The notes under the pieces are model-generated. The model searched no databases. It was not told the origin of the DNA and saw nothing but the letters and a program-made list of their open reading frames with translations. A stretch of 64,000 nt of DNA, taken from Escherichia coli. Its GTDB lineage: Bacteria > Pseudomonadota > Gammaproteobacteria > Enterobacterales > Enterobacteriaceae. A program made the translations under genes and the position numbers. Where the stretch lies: NCBI RefSeq assembly GCF_003334815.1, contig NZ_QOWO01000006.1; one strand, written 5' to 3'. Below are positions 9,780-20,236 of the stretch, piece by piece. Position 1 is the first letter of the stretch. The number at the start of each line of letters is the position of its first letter.

Positions 9780-12700
9780 ATGAAAAAGTTACGCGTAGCC
9801 GCCTGCATGCTAATGCTGGCGCTGGCAGGGTGCGACAACAACGATAACGCGCCAACAGCGGTGAAAAAAGATGCGCCTTCTGAAGTTACTAAAGCGGCCT
9901 CTTCAGAAAACGCGAGTTCAGCAAAACTCTCCGTGCCGGAGAGACAAAAACTGGCCCAACAGAGTGCCGGTAAGGTGCTGACATTGCTGGATCTCTCTGA
10001 AGTCCAACTTGATGGTGCAGCCACGCTGGTGCTGACGTTCTCCATCCCTCTCGACCCGGATCAGGATTTCTCACGCGTTATTCATGTCGTCGATAAAAAA
10101 AGCGGCAAAGTGGATGGTGCCTGGGAGCTGTCAGATAATCTTAAAGAGTTACGTTTACGCCACCTCGAACCGAAACGTGATTTGATCGTTACTATTGGCA
10201 AGGAGGTCAAAGCACTCAACAACGCAACCTTCAGTAAAGATTACGAAAAAACTATAACTACCCGCGACATCCAACCCAGCGTCGGTTTTGCCAGCCGTGG
10301 TTCGCTGCTGCCTGGCAAAGTCGTTGAAGGGCTGCCGGTAATGGCGCTCAACGTTAATAATGTCGATGTTAACTTCTTCCGCGTTAAGCCAGAATCTCTG
10401 CCAGCATTCATTAGCCAATGGGAATACCGCAATTCGCTGGCGAACTGGCAGTCAGACAAACTGCTGCAGATGGCGGATCTGGTCTACACCGGACGGTTTG
10501 ATCTCAATCCTGCGCGTAACACCCGTGAAAAATTATTGCTGCCGCTGGGCGATATCAAACCGCTTCAGCAGGCGGGCGTGTATCTGGCTGTGATGAATCA
10601 GGCTGGACGTTACGATTACAGTAATCCCGCGACGCTGTTTACGTTAAGTGATATCGGCGTTTCAGCTCACCGTTATCACAATCGTCTGGATATCTTTACC
10701 CAAAGTCTGGAAAACGGCGCGGCCCAGCAAGGAATTGAAGTCTCTTTATTAAATGAGAAAGGGCAGACTCTGACTCAGGCAACCAGTGACGCTCAGGGGC
10801 ATGTGCAGCTGGAAAATGATAAAAACGCGGCATTACTGTTGGCGCGTAAAGACGGTCAGACAACGCTACTCGATTTAAAACTTCCGGCGCTGGACTTAGC
10901 AGAATTTAACATTGCTGGCGCGCCAGGCTATAGCAAACAGTTTTTCATGTTTGGCCCACGCGATCTTTATCGCCCAGGTGAAACGGTAATCCTCAATGGT
11001 TTGCTGCGTGATGCAGACGGTAAAGCGTTGCCCAATCAACCCATCAAGTTAGACGTGATTAAACCCGATGGGCAGGTACTCAGGAGCGTCGTTAGTCAGC
11101 CGGAGAATGGCCTCTACCACTTTACCTGGCCACTCGATAGCAATGCGGCAACCGGTATGTGGCATATTCGCGCTAACACGGGCGATAATCAGTATCGGAT
11201 GTGGGATTTCCACGTCGAAGATTTTATGCCAGAGCGCATGGCGCTGAATCTGACCGGTGAGAAAACCCCGCTAACGCCGAAAGATGAAGTGAAATTCTCC
11301 GTGGTGGGGTACTACCTGTATGGTGCACCTGCTAATGGTAATACTTTGCAAGGGCAACTTTTCCTGCGCCCACTGCGTGAAGCTGTGTCAGCCTTACCTG
11401 GTTTTGAATTCGGCGATATAGCTGCCGAAAATCTTTCCCGCACGCTGGATGAAGTTCAGTTGACGCTGGATGATAAAGGGCGCGGCGAAGTTTCTACAGA
11501 AAGCCAGTGGAAGGAAACGCATTCCCCATTACAGGTTATTTTCCAGGGTAGTTTGCTGGAATCGGGCGGTCGCCCGGTGACGCGCCGCGCTGAGCAGGCT
11601 ATCTGGCCTGCCGATGCATTGCCGGGGATCCGTCCGCAGTTCGCCTCGAAATCGGTTTACGATTATCGTACTGACAGCACGGTGAAACAGCCCATTGTTG
11701 ATGAAGGCAGTAACGCCGCTTTTGACATCGTTTATAGCGATGCGCAAGGCGTGAAAAAAGCCGTGTCGGGCTTGCAGGTGCGCCTGATTCGCGAACGCCG
11801 CGATTACTACTGGAACTGGTCAGAAGATGAAGGCTGGCAGTCACAGTTTGATCAAAAAGATCTGATCGAAAATGAACAAACTCTGGATCTGAAAGCGGAC
11901 GAAACCGGCAAGGTCAGTTTTCCGGTAGAGTGGGGCGCTTATCGTCTGGAAGTCAAAGCGCCGAATGAAGCGGTCAGTAGTGTTCGTTTCTGGGCTGGCT
12001 ATAGCTGGCAGGACAACAGCGACGGTAGCGGCGCAGTGCGACCCGACCGTGTCACGCTGAAACTGGATAAAGCCAGTTATCGCCCTGGCGACACCATTAA
12101 GTTGCATATCGCCGCGCCAACGGCGGGTAAAGGTTATGCGATGGTCGAGTCCAGTGAAGGGCCGCTGTGGTGGCAAGAGATTGATGTTCGGGCTCAAGGG
12201 CTGGATCTGACGATTCCGGTCGATAAAACCTGGAATCGTCATGATCTGTATTTAAGTACGCTGGTGGTACGTCCTGGCGATAAATCTCGCTCCGCGACGC
12301 CAAAACGCGCGGTTGGTGTGTTGCATCTGCCGCTTGGCGATGAAAACCGTCGCCTCGATCTGGCGCTGGAAACACCAGCAAAAATGCGTCCCAATCAACC
12401 ATTAACCGTGAAAATTAAAGCCAGCACTAAAAATGGCGAGAAGCCTAAACAGGTGAATGTGCTGGTGTCTGCCGTTGATAGTGGTGTGCTGAATATTACT
12501 GACTACGTCACGCCAGATCCGTGGCAGGCGTTCTTTGGTCAGAAACGCTATGGCGCAGACATTTACGATATTTACGGTCAGGTTATTGAAGGTCAGGGGC
12601 GTCTGGCAGCTCTGCGTTTCGGTGGCGATGGTGATGAGCTGAAACGTGGTGGTAAACCGCCGGTCAATCACGTCAATATTGTCGTGCAGCAGGCGCTGCC

Positions 12701-14741
12701 GGTAACGCTCAACGAACAGGGCGAAGGCTCGGTTACACTGCCGATTGGCGATTTTAACGGTGAATTGCGCGTCATGGCGCAAGCCTGGACGGCAGATGAC
12801 TTCGGTAGCAACGAAAGTAAAGTGATAGTTGCCGCACCGGTGATTGCTGAACTGAACATGCCGCGCTTTATGGCGAGTGGCGATACCTCGCGTCTGACGC
12901 TGGATATCACTAATCTTACCGATAAACCGCAAAAACTGAACGTTGCCCTGACCGCCAGTGGTTTGCTTGAACTGGTCAGCGATTCACCCGCAGCCGTTGA
13001 ATTAGCGCCAGGTGTGCGTACTACGCTGTTTATCCCGGTGCGAGCATTGCCGGGTTATGGCGATGGAGAAATTCAGGCCACCATTAGCGGGTTAGCGTTA
13101 CCGGGTGAAACCGTTGCCGATCAGCATAAGCAGTGGAAAATCGGCGTCCGTCCGGCGTTCCCGGCACAAACGGTTAATTACGGTACGGCGTTACAGCCTG
13201 GTGAGACATGGGCGATTCCGGCGGATGGATTGCAAAACTTCTCGCCTGTTACGCTGGAAGGGCAATTGTTGTTGAGCGGCAAACCACCGCTGAACATCGC
13301 ACGTTATATCAAAGAGTTAAAAGCGTATCCGTACGGCTGTCTTGAGCAAACCGCCAGCGGCCTGTTTCCGTCACTTTATACCAACGCAGCCCAACTGCAG
13401 GCGTTGGGCATCAAAGGCGACAGTGATGAGAAACGCCGTGCATCGGTCGATATCGGCATTTCCCGTTTGCTGCAAATGCAACGTGATAACGGCGGCTTTG
13501 CGCTGTGGGATAAAAACGGTGACGAAGAGTACTGGCTGACGGCTTACGTGATGGATTTCCTGGTCCGCGCAGGCGAACAGGGTTACAGCGTGCCGACAGA
13601 CGCCATTAACCGGGGTAATGAGCGTCTGCTGCGCTATTTACAAGATCCGGGCATGATGTCGATCCCGTACGCGGATAATCTCAAAGCCAGTAAATTCGCC
13701 GTACAGTCTTACGCTGCGCTGGTGTTGGCCCGTCAGCAAAAGGCTCCGCTGGGTGCGCTGCGTGAAATCTGGGAGCATCGTGCAGATGCCGCTTCTGGTT
13801 TACCGCTGCTGCAACTTGGCGTTGCGCTGAAAACCATGGGTGATGCGACGCGTGGTGAAGAAGCGATTGCGCTGGCGCTGAAAACGCCGCGTAATAGTGA
13901 TGAGCGGATATGGCTGGGTGATTACGGTAGTTCACTGCGCGACAACGCGTTAATGCTCTCCTTGCTGGAAGAAAATAAACTGCTACCCGATGAGCAGTAC
14001 ACTTTGCTGAACACACTTTCGCAGCAGGCGTTTGGTGAACGCTGGCTATCGACGCAGGAAAGTAACGCGTTGTTCCTGGCTGCCCGTACGATTCAGGATT
14101 TACCCGGTAAATGGCAGGCGCAAACCTCTTTCTCAGCTGAGCAGCTGACAGGCGAGAAAGCGCAAAACAGCAATCTGAATAGCGATCAACTTGTCACCTT
14201 GCAGGTGAGCAACAGTGGCGATCAGCCGTTATGGTTGCGTATGGATGCCAGCGGTTATCCGCAATCCGCACCTTTACCGGCGAACAATGTGCTGCAAATC
14301 GAGCGTCATATTCTTGGTACTGATGGTAAGAGCAAATCGCTGGACTCGTTACGTAGCGGCGATCTGGTGCTGGTGTGGTTGCAGGTAAAAGCCAGTAACA
14401 GCGTGCCGGATGCGTTAGTCGTGGATCTGCTGCCTGCGGGTCTGGAACTGGAAAACCAGAATCTGGCGAACGGTAGCGCCAGCCTGGAGCAAAGTGGTGG
14501 CGAAGTGCAGAACTTACTGAACCAGATGCAGCAGGCGAGCATTAAGCACATTGAGTTCCGTGACGATCGCTTTGTGGCGGCGGTTGCCGTTGATGAATAC
14601 CAACCGGTAACGCTGGTGTATCTGGCGCGGGCGGTGACGCCGGGAACGTATCAGGTACCGCAACCGATGGTGGAATCAATGTATGTTCCCCAATGGCGGG
14701 CGACCGGCGCGGCTGAAGATCTGCTGATTGTCAGACCGTAA
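9780..14741 (+). CDS. yfhM: Alpha-2-macroglobulin-family lipoprotein (bacterial A2M), 1653 aa
   Basis: Track ORF; lipobox LALAGC; thioester motif CLEQ within YPYGCLEQTASG; followed directly by pbpC. Confidence 0.9.
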   Translation: MKKLRVAACMLMLALAGCDNNDNAPTAVKKDAPSEVTKAASSENASSAKLSVPERQKLAQQSAGKVLTLLDLSEVQLDGAATLVLTFSIPLDPDQDFSRVIHVVDKKSGKVDGAWELSDNLKELRLRHLEPKRDLIVTIGKEVKALNNATFSKDYEKTITTRDIQPSVGFASRGSLLPGKVVEGLPVMALNVNNVDVNFFRVKPESLPAFISQWEYRNSLANWQSDKLLQMADLVYTGRFDLNPARNTREKLLLPLGDIKPLQQAGVYLAVMNQAGRYDYSNPATLFTLSDIGVSAHRYHNRLDIFTQSLENGAAQQGIEVSLLNEKGQTLTQATSDAQGHVQLENDKNAALLLARKDGQTTLLDLKLPALDLAEFNIAGAPGYSKQFFMFGPRDLYRPGETVILNGLLRDADGKALPNQPIKLDVIKPDGQVLRSVVSQPENGLYHFTWPLDSNAATGMWHIRANTGDNQYRMWDFHVEDFMPERMALNLTGEKTPLTPKDEVKFSVVGYYLYGAPANGNTLQGQLFLRPLREAVSALPGFEFGDIAAENLSRTLDEVQLTLDDKGRGEVSTESQWKETHSPLQVIFQGSLLESGGRPVTRRAEQAIWPADALPGIRPQFASKSVYDYRTDSTVKQPIVDEGSNAAFDIVYSDAQGVKKAVSGLQVRLIRERRDYYWNWSEDEGWQSQFDQKDLIENEQTLDLKADETGKVSFPVEWGAYRLEVKAPNEAVSSVRFWAGYSWQDNSDGSGAVRPDRVTLKLDKASYRPGDTIKLHIAAPTAGKGYAMVESSEGPLWWQEIDVRAQGLDLTIPVDKTWNRHDLYLSTLVVRPGDKSRSATPKRAVGVLHLPLGDENRRLDLALETPAKMRPNQPLTVKIKASTKNGEKPKQVNVLVSAVDSGVLNITDYVTPDPWQAFFGQKRYGADIYDIYGQVIEGQGRLAALRFGGDGDELKRGGKPPVNHVNIVVQQALPVTLNEQGEGSVTLPIGDFNGELRVMAQAWTADDFGSNESKVIVAAPVIAELNMPRFMASGDTSRLTLDITNLTDKPQKLNVALTASGLLELVSDSPAAVELAPGVRTTLFIPVRALPGYGDGEIQATISGLALPGETVADQHKQWKIGVRPAFPAQTVNYGTALQPGETWAIPADGLQNFSPVTLEGQLLLSGKPPLNIARYIKELKAYPYGCLEQTASGLFPSLYTNAAQLQALGIKGDSDEKRRASVDIGISRLLQMQRDNGGFALWDKNGDEEYWLTAYVMDFLVRAGEQGYSVPTDAINRGNERLLRYLQDPGMMSIPYADNLKASKFAVQSYAALVLARQQKAPLGALREIWEHRADAASGLPLLQLGVALKTMGDATRGEEAIALALKTPRNSDERIWLGDYGSSLRDNALMLSLLEENKLLPDEQYTLLNTLSQQAFGERWLSTQESNALFLAARTIQDLPGKWQAQTSFSAEQLTGEKAQNSNLNSDQLVTLQVSNSGDQPLWLRMDASGYPQSAPLPANNVLQIERHILGTDGKSKSLDSLRSGDLVLVWLQVKASNSVPDALVVDLLPAGLELENQNLANGSASLEQSGGEVQNLLNQMQQASIKHIEFRDDRFVAAVAVDEYQPVTLVYLARAVTPGTYQVPQPMVESMYVPQWRATGAAEDLLIVRP

Positions 14742-17054
14742 ATGCCTCGCTTGTTAACCAAACGCGGCTGCTGGATAACGTTGGCAGCCGCGCCCTTTCT
14801 CCTTTTTCTTGCAGCGTGGGGAGCAGATAAACTCTGGCCTCTACCGCTGCATGAAGTCAATCCCGCACGAGTGGTCGTGGCGCAGGATGGTACGCCGCTC
14901 TGGCGCTTCGCCGATGCTGACGGCATCTGGCGTTATCCGGTAACAATCGAAGATGTTTCTCCACGTTACCTTGAAGCGCTGATCAATTATGAAGATCGCT
15001 GGTTCTGGAAGCATCCGGGGGTGAATCCATTCTCGGTGGCGCGCGCAGCATGGCAAGATCTCACTTCGGGACGGGTTATTTCCGGTGGCAGCACGCTCAC
15101 TATGCAGGTTGCTCGTCTGCTTGATCCTCACCCCAAAACATTTGGCGGCAAAATTCGCCAGCTCTGGCGCGCGTTGCAACTGGAATGGCATCTGTCTAAG
15201 CGTGAAATTCTGACCTTGTATCTTAACCGCGCTCCGTTTGGCGGTACGTTGCAGGGGATCGGTGCGGCAAGTTGGGCTTATCTCGGAAAATCGCCTGCGA
15301 ATTTAAGCTATTCCGAGGCGGCAATGCTGGCGGTTTTGCCGCAAGCGCCCAGCCGTCTTCGCCCGGATCGTTGGCCGGAGCGTGCCGAAGCCGCGCGTAA
15401 TAAAGTGCTCGAACGGATGGCCGTGCAAGGTGTGTGGTCCCGTGAGCAGGTAAAAGAGTCAAGGGAAGAACCCATCTGGCTGGCCCCCCGACAAATGCCG
15501 CAACTGGCACCGCTGTTTTCGCGCATGATGCTCGGTAAAAGCAAAAGCGACAAAATCACTACTACGTTGGATGCCGGTCTTCAACGACGTCTGGAAGAAC
15601 TGGCGCAAAACTGGAAAGGGCGGTTGCCACCGCGCAGCTCACTGGCGATGATCGTGGTTGATCATACCGATATGCGTGTTCGCGGCTGGGTGGGATCGGT
15701 TGATCTCAACGATGATTCACGCTTTGGTCATGTTGATATGGTCAATTCGATCCGATCGCCAGGATCAGTGCTCAAACCGTTTGTTTATGGTCTGGCGCTG
15801 GATGAAGGCTTGATCCACCCGGCATCACTGCTGCAAGACGTCCCCCGGCGCACCGGTGATTATCGACCAGGTAACTTTGATAGCGGTTTTCATGGCCCGA
15901 TCAGCATGAGCGAGGCGCTGGTGCGCTCGCTGAACTTACCTGCTGTGCAGGTGCTGGAAGCCTATGGACCGAAACGGTTTGCGGCAAAGTTACGCAATGT
16001 TGGATTGCCGTTATATTTGCCCAACGGTGCTGCGCCGAATCTTTCACTCATTCTCGGCGGCGCTGGTGCAAAACTGGAAGATATGGCGGCAGCGTATACC
16101 GCGTTTGCTCGCCACGGCAAGGCAGGCAAATTGCGCTTACAGCCTGACGATCCGCTGCTTGAACGGCCTTTAATGTCGTCGGGGGCGGCGTGGATCATTC
16201 GCCGGATTATGGCTGATGAAGCGCAACCCTTGCCGGATAGTGCCTTGCCGCGCGTCGCCCCACTGGCATGGAAAACGGGCACCAGCTATGGCTATCGTGA
16301 CGCCTGGGCGATTGGGGTTAACGCTCGCTATGTCATTGGGATCTGGACTGGCAGACCGGACGGCACGCCCGTTGTTGGTCAGTTTGGCTTTGCCAGTGCC
16401 GTACCATTGTTGAATCAGGTCAATAATATCTTACTGTCGCGCAGTGCGAATCTGCCGGAAGACCCGCGCCCGAACTCAGTCACTCGTGGCGTTATCTGCT
16501 GGCCGGGCGGACAGTCTTTGCCGGAAGGTGACGGTAACTGTCGCCGCCGCCTGGCAACCTGGCTGCTGGACGGGAGTCAGCCGCCAACTCTATTACTGCC
16601 GGAGCAGGAAGGCATTAATGGCATTCGTTTCCCCATCTGGCTGGATGAAAATGGCAAACGTGTTGCCGCTGATTGCCCGCAAGCGCGACAAGAAATGATA
16701 AATGTCTGGCCGCTACCGCTGGAACCCTGGCTGACCGCATCAGAACGTCGCGCTGTGCGCTTACCACCGGCCTCGACAAGTTGCCCGCCATACGGTCACG
16801 ATGCCCAGCTCCCGCTGCAGCTGACAGGCGTTCGCGATGGCGCGATTATTAAACGTTTACCGGGCGCAGCGGAAGCGACTTTGCCGTTGCAATCAAGTGG
16901 AGGGGCAGGTGAACGCTGGTGGTTTCTGAATGGCGAACCGTTAACTGAACGCGGGCGCAACGTGACCCTGCATTTGACGGATAAAGGTGATTATCAATTG
17001 CTGGTGATGGATGACGTGGGGCAAATCGCGACAGTGAAATTTGTCATGCAATAG
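14742..17054 (+). CDS. pbpC: Penicillin-binding protein 1C (bifunctional glycosyltransferase/transpeptidase-like), 770 aa
   Basis: Track ORF; ATG directly abuts yfhM TAA (taaATG); glycosyltransferase motif EDRWFWKHPG; KTG motif AWKTGTSYG. Confidence 0.9.
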   Translation: MPRLLTKRGCWITLAAAPFLLFLAAWGADKLWPLPLHEVNPARVVVAQDGTPLWRFADADGIWRYPVTIEDVSPRYLEALINYEDRWFWKHPGVNPFSVARAAWQDLTSGRVISGGSTLTMQVARLLDPHPKTFGGKIRQLWRALQLEWHLSKREILTLYLNRAPFGGTLQGIGAASWAYLGKSPANLSYSEAAMLAVLPQAPSRLRPDRWPERAEAARNKVLERMAVQGVWSREQVKESREEPIWLAPRQMPQLAPLFSRMMLGKSKSDKITTTLDAGLQRRLEELAQNWKGRLPPRSSLAMIVVDHTDMRVRGWVGSVDLNDDSRFGHVDMVNSIRSPGSVLKPFVYGLALDEGLIHPASLLQDVPRRTGDYRPGNFDSGFHGPISMSEALVRSLNLPAVQVLEAYGPKRFAAKLRNVGLPLYLPNGAAPNLSLILGGAGAKLEDMAAAYTAFARHGKAGKLRLQPDDPLLERPLMSSGAAWIIRRIMADEAQPLPDSALPRVAPLAWKTGTSYGYRDAWAIGVNARYVIGIWTGRPDGTPVVGQFGFASAVPLLNQVNNILLSRSANLPEDPRPNSVTRGVICWPGGQSLPEGDGNCRRRLATWLLDGSQPPTLLLPEQEGINGIRFPIWLDENGKRVAADCPQARQEMINVWPLPLEPWLTASERRAVRLPPASTSCPPYGHDAQLPLQLTGVRDGAIIKRLPGAAEATLPLQSSGGAGERWWFLNGEPLTERGRNVTLHLTDKGDYQLLVMDDVGQIATVKFVMQ

Positions 17055-17202
17055 TCTGTTTTGTCCCTGATTGTTGCTAAAACTCATTTTATTTTAAAAA
17101 AATGTTACCTTCATCAATAGTCAACGGCCCTGTTGCTCATTATAATCCGCGCCATCTCGTACGCTGGTACAGACAACAACAGAACAATTTACAGAGGTAA
17201 AA

Positions 17203-17634
17203 ATGGCTATTGAACGTACTTTTTCCATCATCAAACCGAACGCGGTAGCAAAAAACGTCATTGGTAATATCTTTGCGCGCTTTGAAGCTGCAGGGTTCAA
17301 AATTGTTGGCACCAAAATGCTGCACCTGACCGTTGAACAGGCACGTGGCTTTTATGCTGAACACGATGGAAAACCGTTCTTTGATGGTCTGGTTGAATTC
17401 ATGACCTCTGGCCCGATCGTGGTTTCCGTGCTGGAAGGTGAAAACGCCGTTCAGCGTCACCGCGATCTGCTGGGCGCGACCAATCCGGCAAACGCACTGG
17501 CTGGTACTCTGCGCGCTGATTACGCTGACAGCCTGACCGAAAACGGTACCCACGGTTCTGATTCCGTCGAATCTGCCGCTCGCGAAATCGCTTATTTCTT
17601 TGGCGAAGGCGAAGTGTGCCCGCGCACCCGTTAA
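17203..17634 (+). CDS. ndk: Nucleoside diphosphate kinase, 143 aa
   Basis: Track ORF; active-site NGTHGSDS. Confidence 0.95.
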
Positions 17635-17696
17635 TAATTTCGTAAATGCCGCGTGCAAACGTGGCATCCGTGCGCCAGAATTTGTACAATGCAGCG

Positions 17697-17737
17697 CCCC
17701 CGGACGAGCAGCCGCTCACCGGGGCGTTTCTTTTTTC
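17697..17737 (+). terminator. ndk intrinsic terminator
   Basis: CCCCGG...CCGGGG stem followed by TTTCTTTTTTC, about 60 nt after ndk stop. Confidence 0.75.
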
Positions 17738-17783
17738 AACCCTCCAGGGGCCATAACGTGTAATAACGAGGCCGGAATAGCAT

Positions 17784-18938
17784 ATGTCTGAACAATTAGT
17801 CACACCTGAAAACGTCACCACGAAAGATGGAAAAATCAACCTGCTGGATCTCAACCGTCAGCAGATGCGGGAGTTTTTTAAAGATTTAGGTGAAAAACCC
17901 TTCCGCGCCGATCAGGTGATGAAGTGGATGTATCACTATTGCTGCGACAACTTTGATGAGATGACCGACATCAACAAAGTGTTGCGCGGCAAACTGAAAG
18001 AGGTGGCGGAAATCCGCGCACCGGAAGTGGTTGAAGAACAGCGTTCATCTGACGGCACCATTAAATGGGCGATCGCCGTTGGCGATCAGCGCGTCGAAAC
18101 GGTGTATATCCCGGAAGACGACCGTGCCACGCTCTGCGTCTCTTCGCAGGTGGGGTGTGCGCTGGAGTGTAAATTCTGTTCCACCGCCCAGCAGGGCTTT
18201 AACCGCAACCTGCGGGTGTCGGAAATTATCGGCCAGGTGTGGCGTGCGGCGAAAATCGTCGGCGCAGCAAAAGTCACCGGTCAGCGTCCGATCACTAACG
18301 TAGTGATGATGGGCATGGGCGAGCCGCTGCTCAACCTGAACAACGTCGTTCCGGCGATGGAAATCATGCTTGATGATTTCGGTTTTGGCCTGTCTAAACG
18401 TCGCGTCACGCTTTCCACTTCCGGTGTAGTTCCGGCGCTGGATAAACTGGGCGATATGATCGACGTTGCACTGGCAATTTCCCTGCACGCGCCGAACGAC
18501 GAAATTCGTGACGAAATTGTGCCGATCAACAAAAAGTACAATATCGAAACGTTCCTTGCTGCGGTGCGCCGTTATCTGGAGAAATCCAACGCCAATCAGG
18601 GCCGAGTCACTATTGAATACGTGATGCTTGACCACGTTAACGACGGCACTGAACACGCGCACCAACTGGCGGAACTGCTGAAAGATACGCCGTGTAAGAT
18701 CAACCTGATCCCGTGGAACCCGTTCCCGGGTGCGCCGTATGGACGCAGCTCGAACAGCCGTATCGACCGTTTCTCAAAAGTGCTGATGAGCTACGGTTTC
18801 ACCACTATTGTGCGTAAAACTCGTGGTGATGATATCGATGCTGCCTGTGGTCAGTTGGCGGGCGATGTTATCGACCGTACGAAACGTACCCTGCGTAAAC
18901 GGATGCAGGGTGAAGCCATCGACATTAAAGCGGTCTGA
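17784..18938 (+). CDS. rlmN: RlmN radical-SAM rRNA/tRNA adenine C2 methyltransferase, 384 aa
   Basis: Track ORF; radical SAM CxxxCxxC (CALECKFC). Confidence 0.95.
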
Positions 18939-18942
18939 TAGC

Positions 18943-18985
18943 CATTACGCCACGGTTACTTTATGTACCGTGGCGTAATGTTTTA
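18943..18985 (+). terminator. rlmN terminator-like hairpin
   Basis: Perfect 14-bp inverted repeat CATTACGCCACGGT / ACCGTGGCGTAATG followed by TTTTAT. Confidence 0.65.
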
Positions 18986-19222
18986 TGAATGAAGTATTAA
19001 GTTGCAATTGTCTGGTCAATATTAACGGTGCGTTTTTGCTGACTTTAAGGCAGTATGTAACGATGCAACAGTAAGTTAGCCTTAGTGAATGTGGGCTTTG
19101 TCACGAGCACACAGACGGTCTTATACTGTATGATAACGGTTAACTTAACGGATGTTTCGCGGTGTGGGTGAGCATGATGGTTCACCGGCATCTCAATTCT
19201 CATTTAAACGTACCTGCAGCGA

Positions 19223-20236
19223 ATGAATACTGAAGCCACGCACGACCAAAATGAAGCACTTACTACCGGCGCTCGCCTGCGTAATGCTCGCGAACAACTA
19301 GGACTTAGTCAGCAGGCCGTTGCCGAGCGACTTTGCCTGAAGGTTTCCACGGTACGCGACATTGAAGAAGATAAGGCACCCGCCGATCTTGCTTCAACAT
19401 TCCTGCGCGGATATATCCGCTCTTATGCGCGTCTGGTACATATTCCAGAAGAAGAACTGCTGCCAGGGCTGGAAAAGCAGGCTCCACTTCGGGCTGCAAA
19501 AGTTGCGCCGATGCAGAGTTTTTCCCTCGGTAAACGCCGCAAAAAACGCGACGGCTGGCTGATGACCTTCACTTGGCTGGTGTTGTTTGTGGTTATCGGC
19601 CTGAGCGGTGCCTGGTGGTGGCAAGACCACAAAGCTCAGCAGGAAGAGATCACCACTATGGCCGATCAATCTTCGGCGGAACTGAGCAGTAATAGCGAGC
19701 AGGGGCAGAGTGTTCCATTAAATACGTCGACAACTACAGACCCGGCTACAACGTCCACGCCGCCAGCGTCTGTGGATACTACCGCAACCAACACGCAAAC
19801 ACCTGCCGTAACTGCGCCAGCACCAGCTGTTGATCCGCAACAGAATGCGGTTGTTTCGCCTTCGCAGGCAAATGTTGATACCGCCGCGACCCCGGCACCA
19901 ACGGCAGCAACAACGCCAGATGGTGCTGCGCCGTTGCCAACCGATCAGGCTGGCGTGACCACGCCGGTGGCTGATCCGAATGCGCTGGTGATGAACTTTA
20001 CTGCCGATTGCTGGCTGGAGGTCACTGATGCTACCGGTAAAAAATTGTTTAGCGGTATGCAGCGTAAAGACGGTAATTTGAACTTAACCGGCCAGGCACC
20101 GTACAAACTGAAAATTGGTGCGCCAGCCGCAGTACAGATCCAGTATCAAGGGAAACCTGTCGATCTGAGTCGTTTTATCAGAACTAACCAGGTTGCGCGT
20201 CTGACCCTCAATGCCGAACAATCACCGGCGCAGTAA
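19223..20236 (+). CDS. rodZ: RodZ cytoskeleton-associated cell-shape protein, 337 aa
   Basis: Track ORF; N-terminal HTH ([10 protein letters not shown]), single TM ([16 protein letters not shown]), Pro/Thr/Ala-rich linker. Confidence 0.9.

What the first reader, a model, noticed from the sequence alone, without database searches (positions are those of the whole stretch)
9780..17054. yfhM-pbpC pair with abutting stop/start, facing sseA divergently
A 1653-aa alpha-2-macroglobulin lipoprotein with an intact CLEQ thioester is followed by PBP1C whose ATG directly abuts the yfhM TAA (taaATG), indicating translational coupling of a periplasmic protease-trap with a peptidoglycan synthase. This is a known, conserved pairing rather than a novel system, noted because giant envelope ORFs are sometimes misread as toxins or adhesins.
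Basis: partly seen in the sequence, partly recalled or inferred. Interest (0 to 1): 0.2.

Follow-up and report, generated by a model that had tools for sequence, protein, structure and literature searches.

The report
Known E. coli yfhM-pbpC gene pair
This is the ordinary, already well-described E. coli K-12 gene pair that encodes a periplasmic protease trap (alpha-2-macroglobulin YfhM/ECAM) followed directly by the cell-wall synthase PBP1C; nothing about this copy is unusual.

Summary
ORFs 9780..14741 (+, 1653 aa) and 14742..17054 (+, 770 aa) exist, and the junction reads ccgTAAATGcct. sseA (8728..9573, -) is divergent across a 206-bp spacer. The stretch is 100% identical to E. coli K-12 MG1655, where RefSeq annotates yfhM and pbpC at the same coordinates. 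It is present in all 5426 complete E. coli genomes searched.

Pfam finds the full bacterial A2M domain set in YfhM and Transgly, Transpeptidase and BiPBP_C in PbpC. CLEQ lies at residues 1187-1190. The lipobox is LAGC (Cys18) with Asp at +2. All PBP catalytic motifs are intact. Crystal and cryo-EM structures of this same protein exist (4RTD, 4ZIQ, 5A42).

pbpC has no Shine-Dalgarno sequence (anti-SD duplex +0.4 kcal/mol, against -5.9 to -7.1 for four neighbouring genes). That fits translation by termination-reinitiation, but this is inferred, not shown.

In 6 of 7 assessable distant PBP1C loci (34-61% identity), an A2M gene sits directly upstream on the same strand. The spacing ranges from -29 to +287 nt, so the pairing is conserved but the exact abutment is not.

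The "protease trap plus wall repair" model dates from Budd et al. 2004, and the PBP1C part remains untested.

Verdict: already known; low interest.

The parts
8728..9573 (-). sseA, 3-mercaptopyruvate sulfurtransferase (281 aa), divergent neighbour of yfhM
   Evidence: NF008557 equivalog, 579.9 bits, positions 1-280 of 281; RefSeq annotation of the identical K-12 sequence
9574..9779 (.). 206-bp divergent sseA/yfhM intergenic region. It holds a sigma-70-like match at 9707-9735 (+; ATTACA-17-CATAAT, 9/12) and the yfhM Shine-Dalgarno (GGGA, anti-SD duplex -6.0 kcal/mol).
   Evidence: The promoter match is a consensus hit only; the number of such hits in the region equals the shuffle expectation.
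9780..14741 (+). yfhM (ECAM), 1653-aa type I bacterial alpha-2-macroglobulin lipoprotein
   Evidence: Pfam bMG1, A2M_bMG2, bMG3, MG2, bMG5, bMG6, A2M_BRD, A2M, TED_complement, CUB_A2MG, bMG10; PDB 4RTD/4ZIQ/5A42 are this protein; RefSeq WP_000736312.1
9780..9833 (+). Lipoprotein signal peptide with lipobox LAGC. Cys18 is the lipidated residue and Asp19 is at +2 (inner-membrane retention signal).
   Evidence: Read from the sequence. The Asp+2 Lol-avoidance rule is established knowledge, and the inner-membrane location is stated in PMC4498604.
12546..12668 (+). Bait region, residues about 923-963. Arg923-Leu942 is disordered in the elastase-cleaved crystal structure, and Arg956, Gly958 and Asn963 contact the C-terminal MG domain after cleavage.
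   Evidence: Pfam A2M_BRD covers residues 759-905. Residue numbers come from PMC4498604 and coordinates.
13338..13349 (+). Thioester motif CLEQ (Cys1187-Gln1190) in the TED domain
   Evidence: the residue numbers match the published structure
14739..14744 (+). Junction TAAATG: the yfhM stop is followed at once by the pbpC start, and no Shine-Dalgarno lies in the 25 nt upstream
   Evidence: anti-SD duplex +0.4 kcal/mol. The junction is identical in divergent E. coli alleles L003 and L004.
14742..17054 (+). pbpC, penicillin-binding protein 1C (770 aa), class A PBP
   Evidence: NF008414 at 1565.7 bits (cut-off 1121) over residues 1-770; TIGR02073 at 918 bits (cut-off 494); Pfam Transgly, Transpeptidase, BiPBP_C; RefSeq WP_001137675.1
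14769..14825 (+). N-terminal membrane anchor of PBP1C (residues 10-28, CWITLAAAPFLLFLAAWGA)
   Evidence: Most hydrophobic 19-mer of the protein, Kyte-Doolittle mean 1.79. That it is a transmembrane helix is inferred.
14922..15419 (+). GT51 glycosyltransferase domain (residues 61-226) with motifs E84-DRWFWKHPG, GGSTLTMQ, KREILTLYLN and RNKVL
   Evidence: Pfam PF00912, E=4.9e-52; motifs
15657..16298 (+). Transpeptidase domain (residues 306-519) with S342-VLK, S396-LN and K511-TG
   Evidence: Pfam PF00905, E=7.7e-12; motifs
16800..17042 (+). BiPBP_C C-terminal domain (residues 687-767), the hallmark of PBP1C-type enzymes
   Evidence: Pfam PF06832, E=4.8e-17
17055..17202 (+). 148-bp pbpC-ndk spacer. 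No terminator-like hairpin was found on the + strand. A strong sigma-70-like match (TAGTCA-17-TATAAT, 10/12) lies at 17118-17146 upstream of ndk.

Best explanation
The region is the chromosomal yfhM-pbpC pair of E. coli K-12.

YfhM (ECAM) is exported and lipidated on Cys18. Asp at +2 keeps it in the outer leaflet of the inner membrane, so it faces the periplasm. It is a monomeric alpha-2-macroglobulin. When a protease that has entered the periplasm cuts the disordered bait region (about residues 923-963), the cut segment displaces the C-terminal MG domain from the thioester domain. This exposes the Cys1187-Gln1190 thioester, which bonds covalently to the protease and sterically blocks it. This mechanism is shown in the literature for this same protein.

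pbpC encodes PBP1C, an inner-membrane-anchored class A PBP with intact glycosyltransferase and transpeptidase motifs and a BiPBP_C domain.

The two genes are probably co-transcribed from a promoter in the sseA-yfhM spacer. Because pbpC has no Shine-Dalgarno sequence and its ATG follows the yfhM TAA directly, PBP1C is most likely made by ribosomes that terminate at yfhM and reinitiate. That would tie PBP1C output to a fraction of YfhM translation. This step is inferred.

The proposed joint role is that the trap blocks invading proteases while PBP1C supplies extra glycan-polymerising capacity to mend the sacculus. This is the published hypothesis and has not been demonstrated.
For: Identity:
- The stretch is 100% identical to K-12 MG1655, with the same gene coordinates and names.
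- It is present in 5426 of 5426 complete E. coli genomes.

YfhM:
- The full A2M domain series is found.
- CLEQ, the lipobox with Asp+2, and the RDDR and ESMY motifs are present.
- Solved structures 4RTD, 4ZIQ and 5A42 are this protein, and 4U48 is the Salmonella orthologue.
- The mechanism and inner-membrane anchoring are described in PMC4498604.

PBP1C:
- The equivalog models score above their cut-offs over the full length.
- The three Pfam domains are found.
- All GT51 and SxxK/SxN/KTG motifs are intact.

Coupling:
- The spacing is 0 nt.
- The anti-SD duplex is +0.4 kcal/mol for pbpC, against -5.9 to -7.1 for sseA, yfhM, ndk and rlmN.
- TAAATG and the lack of an SD persist in alleles that are 93% identical.

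Conserved pairing:
- An A2M gene lies directly upstream on the same strand in 6 of 7 assessable loci that carry PBP1C homologues of 34-61% identity.
- The literature states the pairing.
Against: - No transcript or translation data could be consulted, so neither the operon nor the coupling is shown here.
- The exact abutment is not conserved outside E. coli: spacings are +287, +53, +14, -11, -17 and -29 nt, and some of those pbpC starts have their own SD-like sequence. Strict coupling is therefore not required for the pairing.
- One PBP1C homologue (L010) has no A2M neighbour.
- One pbpC-linked A2M (L014) has lost the thioester cysteine.
- One E. coli strain keeps yfhM but lacks pbpC.
- PBP1C has no known role under laboratory conditions and cannot replace PBP1A and PBP1B (PMC7554673). 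Its only reported phenotype needs overproduction (PMC6131605).
- A genomic SELEX study reports an RpoE-holoenzyme site inside yfhM, which leaves room for internal transcription starts.
Confidence: 0.9

Rival explanations
1. The abutting stop and start are incidental. pbpC would be translated independently, either by SD-independent initiation (for example S1-dependent initiation on an unstructured A/U-containing leader) or from a transcript that starts inside the 3' part of yfhM. PBP1C levels would then not be tied to YfhM translation.
For: - Junction spacing varies from -29 to +287 nt in other taxa while the pairing persists.
- An RpoE SELEX peak is reported inside yfhM.
- Sigma-70-like matches occur inside the genes, but at the frequency expected by chance.
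Against: - pbpC has no recognisable SD, while all four neighbouring genes have one.
- TAAATG is retained in a divergent E. coli allele that has three substitutions in the 30 nt just upstream.
- The reported RpoE peak (K-12 coordinate 2649866) lies in yfhM far upstream of pbpC by my recollection of the K-12 gene coordinates, so it would not give a pbpC-only mRNA.
Confidence: 0.2
2. The two genes are neighbours only through shared ancestry or joint horizontal transfer and have no functional partnership. YfhM would be a stand-alone protease trap, and PBP1C a spare glycosyltransferase used when extra glycan synthesis is needed.
For: - No interaction or shared phenotype has been published in the papers read.
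- A PBP1C homologue exists without A2M (L010).
- An E. coli strain has yfhM but not pbpC.
Against: Same-strand adjacency survives down to 34% PBP1C identity and about 30-36% A2M identity, in otherwise unrelated genomic contexts. Adjacency without selection rarely persists that far.
Confidence: 0.2
3. The giant ORF is a misannotated adhesin, toxin or autotransporter rather than a macroglobulin.
For: Only its size (1653 aa) and envelope location.
Against: - A2M-specific domains cover the whole length.
- Solved structures of this same protein show the A2M fold.
- There are no PADLOC hits, and no toxin or adhesin family appears in the Pfam output.
Confidence: 0.01

Closest known systems
ECAM / YfhM of E. 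coli K-12 (type I bacterial alpha-2-macroglobulin; PDB 4RTD, 4ZIQ, 5A42)
   Same: It is the same gene: 100% nucleotide identity and the same protein accession, WP_000736312.1.
   Different: Nothing.
PBP1C (pbpC) of E. coli K-12 (Schiffer and Holtje 1999)
   Same: It is the same gene, WP_001137675.1, and matches the equivalog models NF008414 and TIGR02073 over the full length.
   Different: Nothing. No solved structure of PBP1C itself was found by sequence; the best PDB match is PBP1a 4OON at 1.4e-54.
Sa-A2M of Salmonella enterica (PDB 4U48)
   Same: Orthologue with the same 13-domain layout, thioester and lipoprotein anchor. The match covers residues 18-1653 at 3037 bits, and identity is about 81-82% according to PMC4498604.
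   Different: It is from a different species. Its native, uncleaved form shows the locked thioester.
MagD / type II bacterial A2M (P. aeruginosa magABCDEF; E. coli YfaS class)
   Same: Periplasmic macroglobulin fold with a bait region and protease entrapment.
   Different: Type II proteins lack both the lipobox Cys and the CxEQ thioester, and they sit in a six-gene operon rather than next to pbpC. The window protein has both cysteines and the pbpC neighbour, so it is type I.
Human alpha-2-macroglobulin / complement C3 / CD109
   Same: MG domains, bait region, TED with a CxEQ thioester, and activation by conformational change. The sequence matches are weak but significant (7VOO 1.6e-06, C3 1.6e-04, CD109 3.7e-04).
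   Different: The eukaryotic proteins are secreted, glycosylated and (for A2M) tetrameric. ECAM is a monomeric membrane-anchored lipoprotein with two extra N-terminal MG domains.

Membership tests
Type I bacterial alpha-2-macroglobulin (ECAM/YfhM) | Series of macroglobulin domains plus bait-region domain, thioester domain, CUB and C-terminal MG domain | tested here: met
   Pfam bMG1, A2M_bMG2, bMG3, MG2, bMG5, bMG6, A2M_BRD, A2M, TED_complement, CUB_A2MG and bMG10, in order along the protein
Type I bacterial alpha-2-macroglobulin (ECAM/YfhM) | Intact CxEQ thioester motif | tested here: met
   YPYGCLEQTASG, with Cys1187 and Gln1190. Formation of the bond cannot be tested here; it is published for this protein.
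Type I bacterial alpha-2-macroglobulin (ECAM/YfhM) | Lipoprotein signal peptide with a lipobox cysteine | tested here: met
   MKKLRVAACMLMLALAG-C18-D19
Type I bacterial alpha-2-macroglobulin (ECAM/YfhM) | Gene adjacent to pbpC on the same strand | tested here: met
   Spacing is 0 nt here. The same arrangement holds in 6 of 7 assessable distant loci.
Type I bacterial alpha-2-macroglobulin (ECAM/YfhM) | Covalent trapping of proteases after bait cleavage | not testable with these tools
   Biochemical property, reported for the identical protein in PMC4498604 and the papers it cites
PBP1C (class A penicillin-binding protein, PbpC equivalog) | Full-length score above the curated NCBIfam cut-off | tested here: met
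   NF008414 at 1565.7 bits against a cut-off of 1121; TIGR02073 at 918.1 against 494.2
PBP1C (class A penicillin-binding protein, PbpC equivalog) | GT51 glycosyltransferase domain with the catalytic Glu motif | tested here: met
   PF00912, E=4.9e-52; E84-DRWFWKHPG, GGSTLTMQ and KREILTLYLN
PBP1C (class A penicillin-binding protein, PbpC equivalog) | Transpeptidase domain with SxxK, SxN and KTG | tested here: met
   PF00905, E=7.7e-12; S342VLK, S396LN and K511TG
PBP1C (class A penicillin-binding protein, PbpC equivalog) | C-terminal BiPBP_C domain | tested here: met
   PF06832, E=4.8e-17, residues 687-767
Translationally coupled gene pair (termination-reinitiation) | Upstream stop within a few nucleotides of the downstream start | tested here: met
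   TAAATG, 0-nt spacing
Translationally coupled gene pair (termination-reinitiation) | Downstream gene lacks its own ribosome-binding site | tested here: met
   Best anti-SD duplex in the 25 nt upstream is +0.4 kcal/mol, against -5.9 to -7.1 for four neighbouring genes. This is computational only.
Translationally coupled gene pair (termination-reinitiation) | Downstream translation depends on upstream translation, and both genes are on one mRNA | not testable with these tools
   This needs nonsense-mutant, reporter or ribosome-profiling data. No convincing intrinsic terminator was found between the genes.

The most novel reading that the evidence does not exclude
The SD-less, abutting junction might exist to make PBP1C at the same membrane site and in fixed proportion to ECAM, so that the two inner-membrane-anchored proteins form a physical complex. 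The PBP1C-specific BiPBP_C domain might be the docking site, and the protease-triggered conformational change of ECAM might switch on local peptidoglycan synthesis. The pair would then be a sensor-effector repair module rather than two independent proteins. Nothing I ran tests this, and no paper I read reports an interaction.
Probability: 0.08. Interest if true: 0.5.

Novelty: already known. Interest (0 to 1): 0.07.

Why it matters
It matters little as a discovery. The genes, the structures, the trap mechanism and the A2M-pbpC linkage have been in the literature since 1999-2015, and this copy is the K-12 reference sequence itself. The one open question it touches is what PBP1C does and whether it cooperates with ECAM. 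This window adds a small clarification: pbpC in E. coli has no ribosome-binding site of its own, which makes a simple coupling experiment well defined. The result also confirms that this giant envelope ORF should not be flagged as a toxin or adhesin.

Tried and rejected
- NCBIfam scan of YfhM returned no family. This is a gap in that library, not evidence against A2M, because Pfam and PDB are unambiguous.
- PADLOC scan of both proteins gave no hits, so the pair is not catalogued as an anti-phage defence system.
- The six longest antisense ORFs inside yfhM and pbpC (105-175 aa) had no family hits and were treated as spurious.
- Rfam at gathering threshold over 7000-20000 found nothing within 9574-17202. 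It found only ryfA and IS128 upstream of sseA.
- The promoter and terminator scan found as many hits as in shuffled sequence, so it cannot define the transcription unit.
- Budd et al. 2004 (PMC463071) and Doan and Gettins 2008 (PMC2568910) are not held in the library. Their content is cited only through later papers that describe them.
- A search for recent work on yfhM (29 papers from 2016 on) showed no new functional study by title or abstract.
- L012 was uninformative because the contig ends 73 nt upstream of pbpC.
- I did not use the genome contigs or metagenome scans. Seven loci from exact-protein look-ups were enough for a finding that is already known.


Full report
**Observation.** The six-frame ORF list contains exactly the two ORFs described: 9780..14741 (+, 1653 aa) and 14742..17054 (+, 770 aa). 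The sequence at the boundary is ...gtc aga ccg TAA ATG cct cgc..., so the pbpC ATG follows the yfhM TAA with no intervening base. The translation of the first ORF begins MKKLRVAACMLMLALAGCDNND and contains YPYGCLEQTASG. A script places CLEQ at residues 1187-1190 and the lipobox LAGC with Cys18 followed by Asp. On the minus strand, the 281-aa product of 8728..9573 matches the 3-mercaptopyruvate sulfurtransferase equivalog NF008557 end to end. It is therefore sseA, divergent from yfhM across 206 bp. The 334-aa ORF reported is only the longest possible ORF.

**Origin.** Window 9400-17300 is 100% identical over all 7901 bases to E. coli K-12 MG1655 and many other strains. It has a match in 5426 of 5426 complete E. 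coli genomes, always chromosomal, and at least 80% of it is covered in 5424. RefSeq annotation of the K-12 record gives yfhM (alpha2-macroglobulin, WP_000736312.1) and pbpC (peptidoglycan glycosyltransferase PbpC, WP_001137675.1) at the same coordinates as the ORFs. The flanking genes are sseB, timP and sseA on one side and ndk, rlmN and rodZ on the other. The window as a whole runs from the isc operon to hyfR of K-12.

**YfhM.**
- Pfam, run on two overlapping halves because of the length limit, finds in order bMG1, A2M_bMG2, bMG3, MG2, bMG5, bMG6, A2M_BRD, A2M, TED_complement, CUB_A2MG and bMG10.
- The PDB sequence search returns structures of this same protein (4RTD, 4ZIQ, 5A42, and fragments 4ZIU, 4ZJG, 4ZJH) and of the Salmonella orthologue (4U48, 4U4J, 4U59). 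It also gives weak but significant matches to human alpha-2-macroglobulin, complement C3 and CD109.
- The RDDR and ExMY motifs, which Fyfe et al. describe as contacting the thioester domain before cleavage and the cut bait region after it, are present (FRDDRF, VESMY).
- NCBIfam has no model that hits this protein. That is a gap in the library.

**PBP1C.**
- The protein scores 1565.7 bits against the PbpC equivalog NF008414 (cut-off 1121) over residues 1-770, and 918 bits against TIGR02073 PBP_1c (cut-off 494).
- Pfam finds Transgly (61-226), Transpeptidase (306-519) and BiPBP_C (687-767).
- The GT51 motifs are present: E84-DRWFWKHPG, GGSTLTMQ, KREILTLYLN and RNKVL. So are the acyl-serine transferase motifs S342-VLK, S396-LN and K511-TG.
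- The most hydrophobic 19-mer is residues 10-28, consistent with an N-terminal membrane anchor.
- No solved structure of PBP1C itself turned up. The best PDB match is a PBP1a at 1.4e-54.

**Is the junction a coupling device?** I computed the best duplex between the 3' end of 16S rRNA (ACCUCCUUA) and the 25 nt upstream of each start codon.

| Gene | Anti-SD duplex (kcal/mol) |
|---|---|
| sseA | -6.4 |
| yfhM | -6.0 |
| ndk | -7.1 |
| rlmN | -5.9 |
| pbpC | +0.4 (no pairing) |

A start codon without a Shine-Dalgarno, placed directly after the stop codon of a translated upstream gene, is the classic arrangement for termination-reinitiation (established knowledge).

Among 31 same-strand junctions in the first 50 kb of the window, spacing 0 is the second tightest after purM-purN at -1. 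Within E. coli, the 501 bp around the junction are below 95% identical to K-12 in 1111 genomes. In two such alleles (93%), TAAATG and the absence of an SD are both retained, despite three substitutions in the 30 nt upstream.

The scan for intrinsic terminators found none on the + strand between the genes or after pbpC. The overall number of promoter-like and terminator-like hits equals the shuffle expectation, so the scan cannot define the transcription unit.

**Conservation of the pairing.** A full HMMER search of 1.84 billion representative proteins with PBP1C gave 7943 hits below 1e-30. I looked up the contigs that encode eight representatives, which are 34-61% identical to E. coli PBP1C.

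| Locus | PBP1C identity | A2M gene directly upstream, same strand | Stop-to-start spacing (nt) |
|---|---|---|---|
| L006 | 61% | yes | +287 |
| L014 | 54% | yes | +53 |
| L007 | 51% | yes | -17 |
| L008 | 47% | yes | -29 |
| L010 | 43% | no (two acyltransferase genes upstream) | not applicable |
| L011 | 41% | yes | -11 |
| L012 | 34% | not assessable (contig cut 73 nt upstream) | not applicable |
| L013 | 34% | yes (only the C-terminal fragment lies on the contig; blastp 2.5e-17 to YfhM 1501-1641) | +14 |

Six of the seven assessable loci carry the A2M gene. Apart from ndk downstream in L006 and L014, and rlmN in L006, the flanking genes differ from those in E. coli, so the adjacency itself is what is conserved. 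Tight or overlapping junctions are common, but the exact abutment is particular to E. coli.

The A2M proteins of L006, L007, L008 and L011 keep the thioester Cys-Leu-Glu-Gln. The L014 protein reads SGSLEQ, having lost the cysteine.

**What the literature says.**
- Fyfe et al. [quoted passage not shown] 2004 proposed they act together: ECAM inhibits host proteases that enter the periplasm and PBP1C repairs the damage. They describe the activation mechanism from the elastase-cleaved structure.
- Robert-Genthon et al. 2013 and Zouhir et al. 2018 distinguish type I A2Ms (thioester, lipobox, next to pbpC) from type II (MagD, no cysteines, six-gene operon).
- Montón Silva et al. [quoted passage not shown]
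- I found no later functional study.
- The trap mechanism is therefore established for this same protein. The partnership with PBP1C is a 20-year-old hypothesis that is still open.

**Other strand and other features.**
- The longest antisense ORFs within the two genes have no family matches.
- Rfam finds nothing inside the region.
- PADLOC has no models matching either protein.
- GC content is 0.530 for yfhM and 0.567 for pbpC, against 0.523 for the window. pbpC is slightly high but this is unremarkable.

**Verdict.** The new detail from this check is modest. pbpC has no Shine-Dalgarno, which supports coupling in E. coli. The junction spacing is variable across taxa, which shows that coupling is not a defining property of the pair. 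Interest is low.

Noticed in passing
window 7909-8212 (-) and 8344-8552 (-): Rfam finds ryfA RNA (314.9 bits) and IS128 RNA (262.1 bits) between sseB and sseA. RefSeq annotates the small toxic inner-membrane protein gene timP (7941-8066, -) inside the ryfA match. These are known K-12 features.
   Followed up: no
L005 (E. coli NCTC9100, NZ_LR134239.1) 3242-3419: This strain keeps an intact yfhM (the same protein accession as K-12) but lacks both pbpC and ndk; rlmN follows yfhM after 176 bp. It is the only one of 5426 complete genomes where the junction segment is not fully covered, so it is a natural pbpC-ndk deletion.
   Followed up: partly
H2 and H3 (E. coli HL15 and SF10): An IS5-family transposase is annotated within the sseA-yfhM-pbpC-ndk stretch in these two duck isolates, and the match is split into two pieces. 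The exact insertion site was not examined.
   Followed up: no
window 14500-15000: The 501 bp around the junction are below 95% identical to K-12 in 1111 of 5426 genomes. The whole 7.9-kb stretch is below 95% in only 19. This indicates a locally divergent allele at the yfhM 3' / pbpC 5' end, possibly a recombination segment. TAAATG is retained in the two examples read.
   Followed up: partly
L014 809-5947 (Logan ERR11835613 contig, GC 0.35): An A2M homologue (41% identical to YfhM, lipobox LWGC followed by D) sits upstream of pbpC and ndk. It has SGSLEQ in place of YGCLEQ, so it has lost the thioester cysteine while keeping the type I gene context.
   Followed up: partly
L010 1917-4262: A PBP1C homologue (43% identity, with all three Pfam domains) has acyltransferase and acetyltransferase genes upstream instead of an A2M gene, so the pairing is not universal.
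   Followed up: no
L006 5714-6000: In the closest non-E. coli representative (61% PBP1C identity, with the same downstream a2m-pbpC-ndk-rlmN order), a 287-bp non-coding spacer separates A2M and pbpC, and pbpC is called with a TTG start. The spacer content was not analysed.
   Followed up: no
window 9780-14741: NCBIfam release 20 has no HMM that matches YfhM at E<=0.001, although RefSeq names the protein alpha2-macroglobulin.
   Followed up: no
inside yfhM (K-12 coordinate 2649866 in PMC5493296): Shimada et al. 2017 list an RpoE-holoenzyme genomic-SELEX peak located within the yfhM coding sequence (type D, intensity 6.1). I did not map it to window coordinates or look for a sigma-E motif.
   Followed up: no
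window 17055-17202: The pbpC-ndk spacer has no terminator-like hairpin on the + strand. It does contain the best sigma-70-like match of the region (TAGTCA-17-TATAAT, 10/12) preceded by an A/T-rich tract. ndk probably has its own promoter, and read-through from pbpC is not excluded.
   Followed up: no
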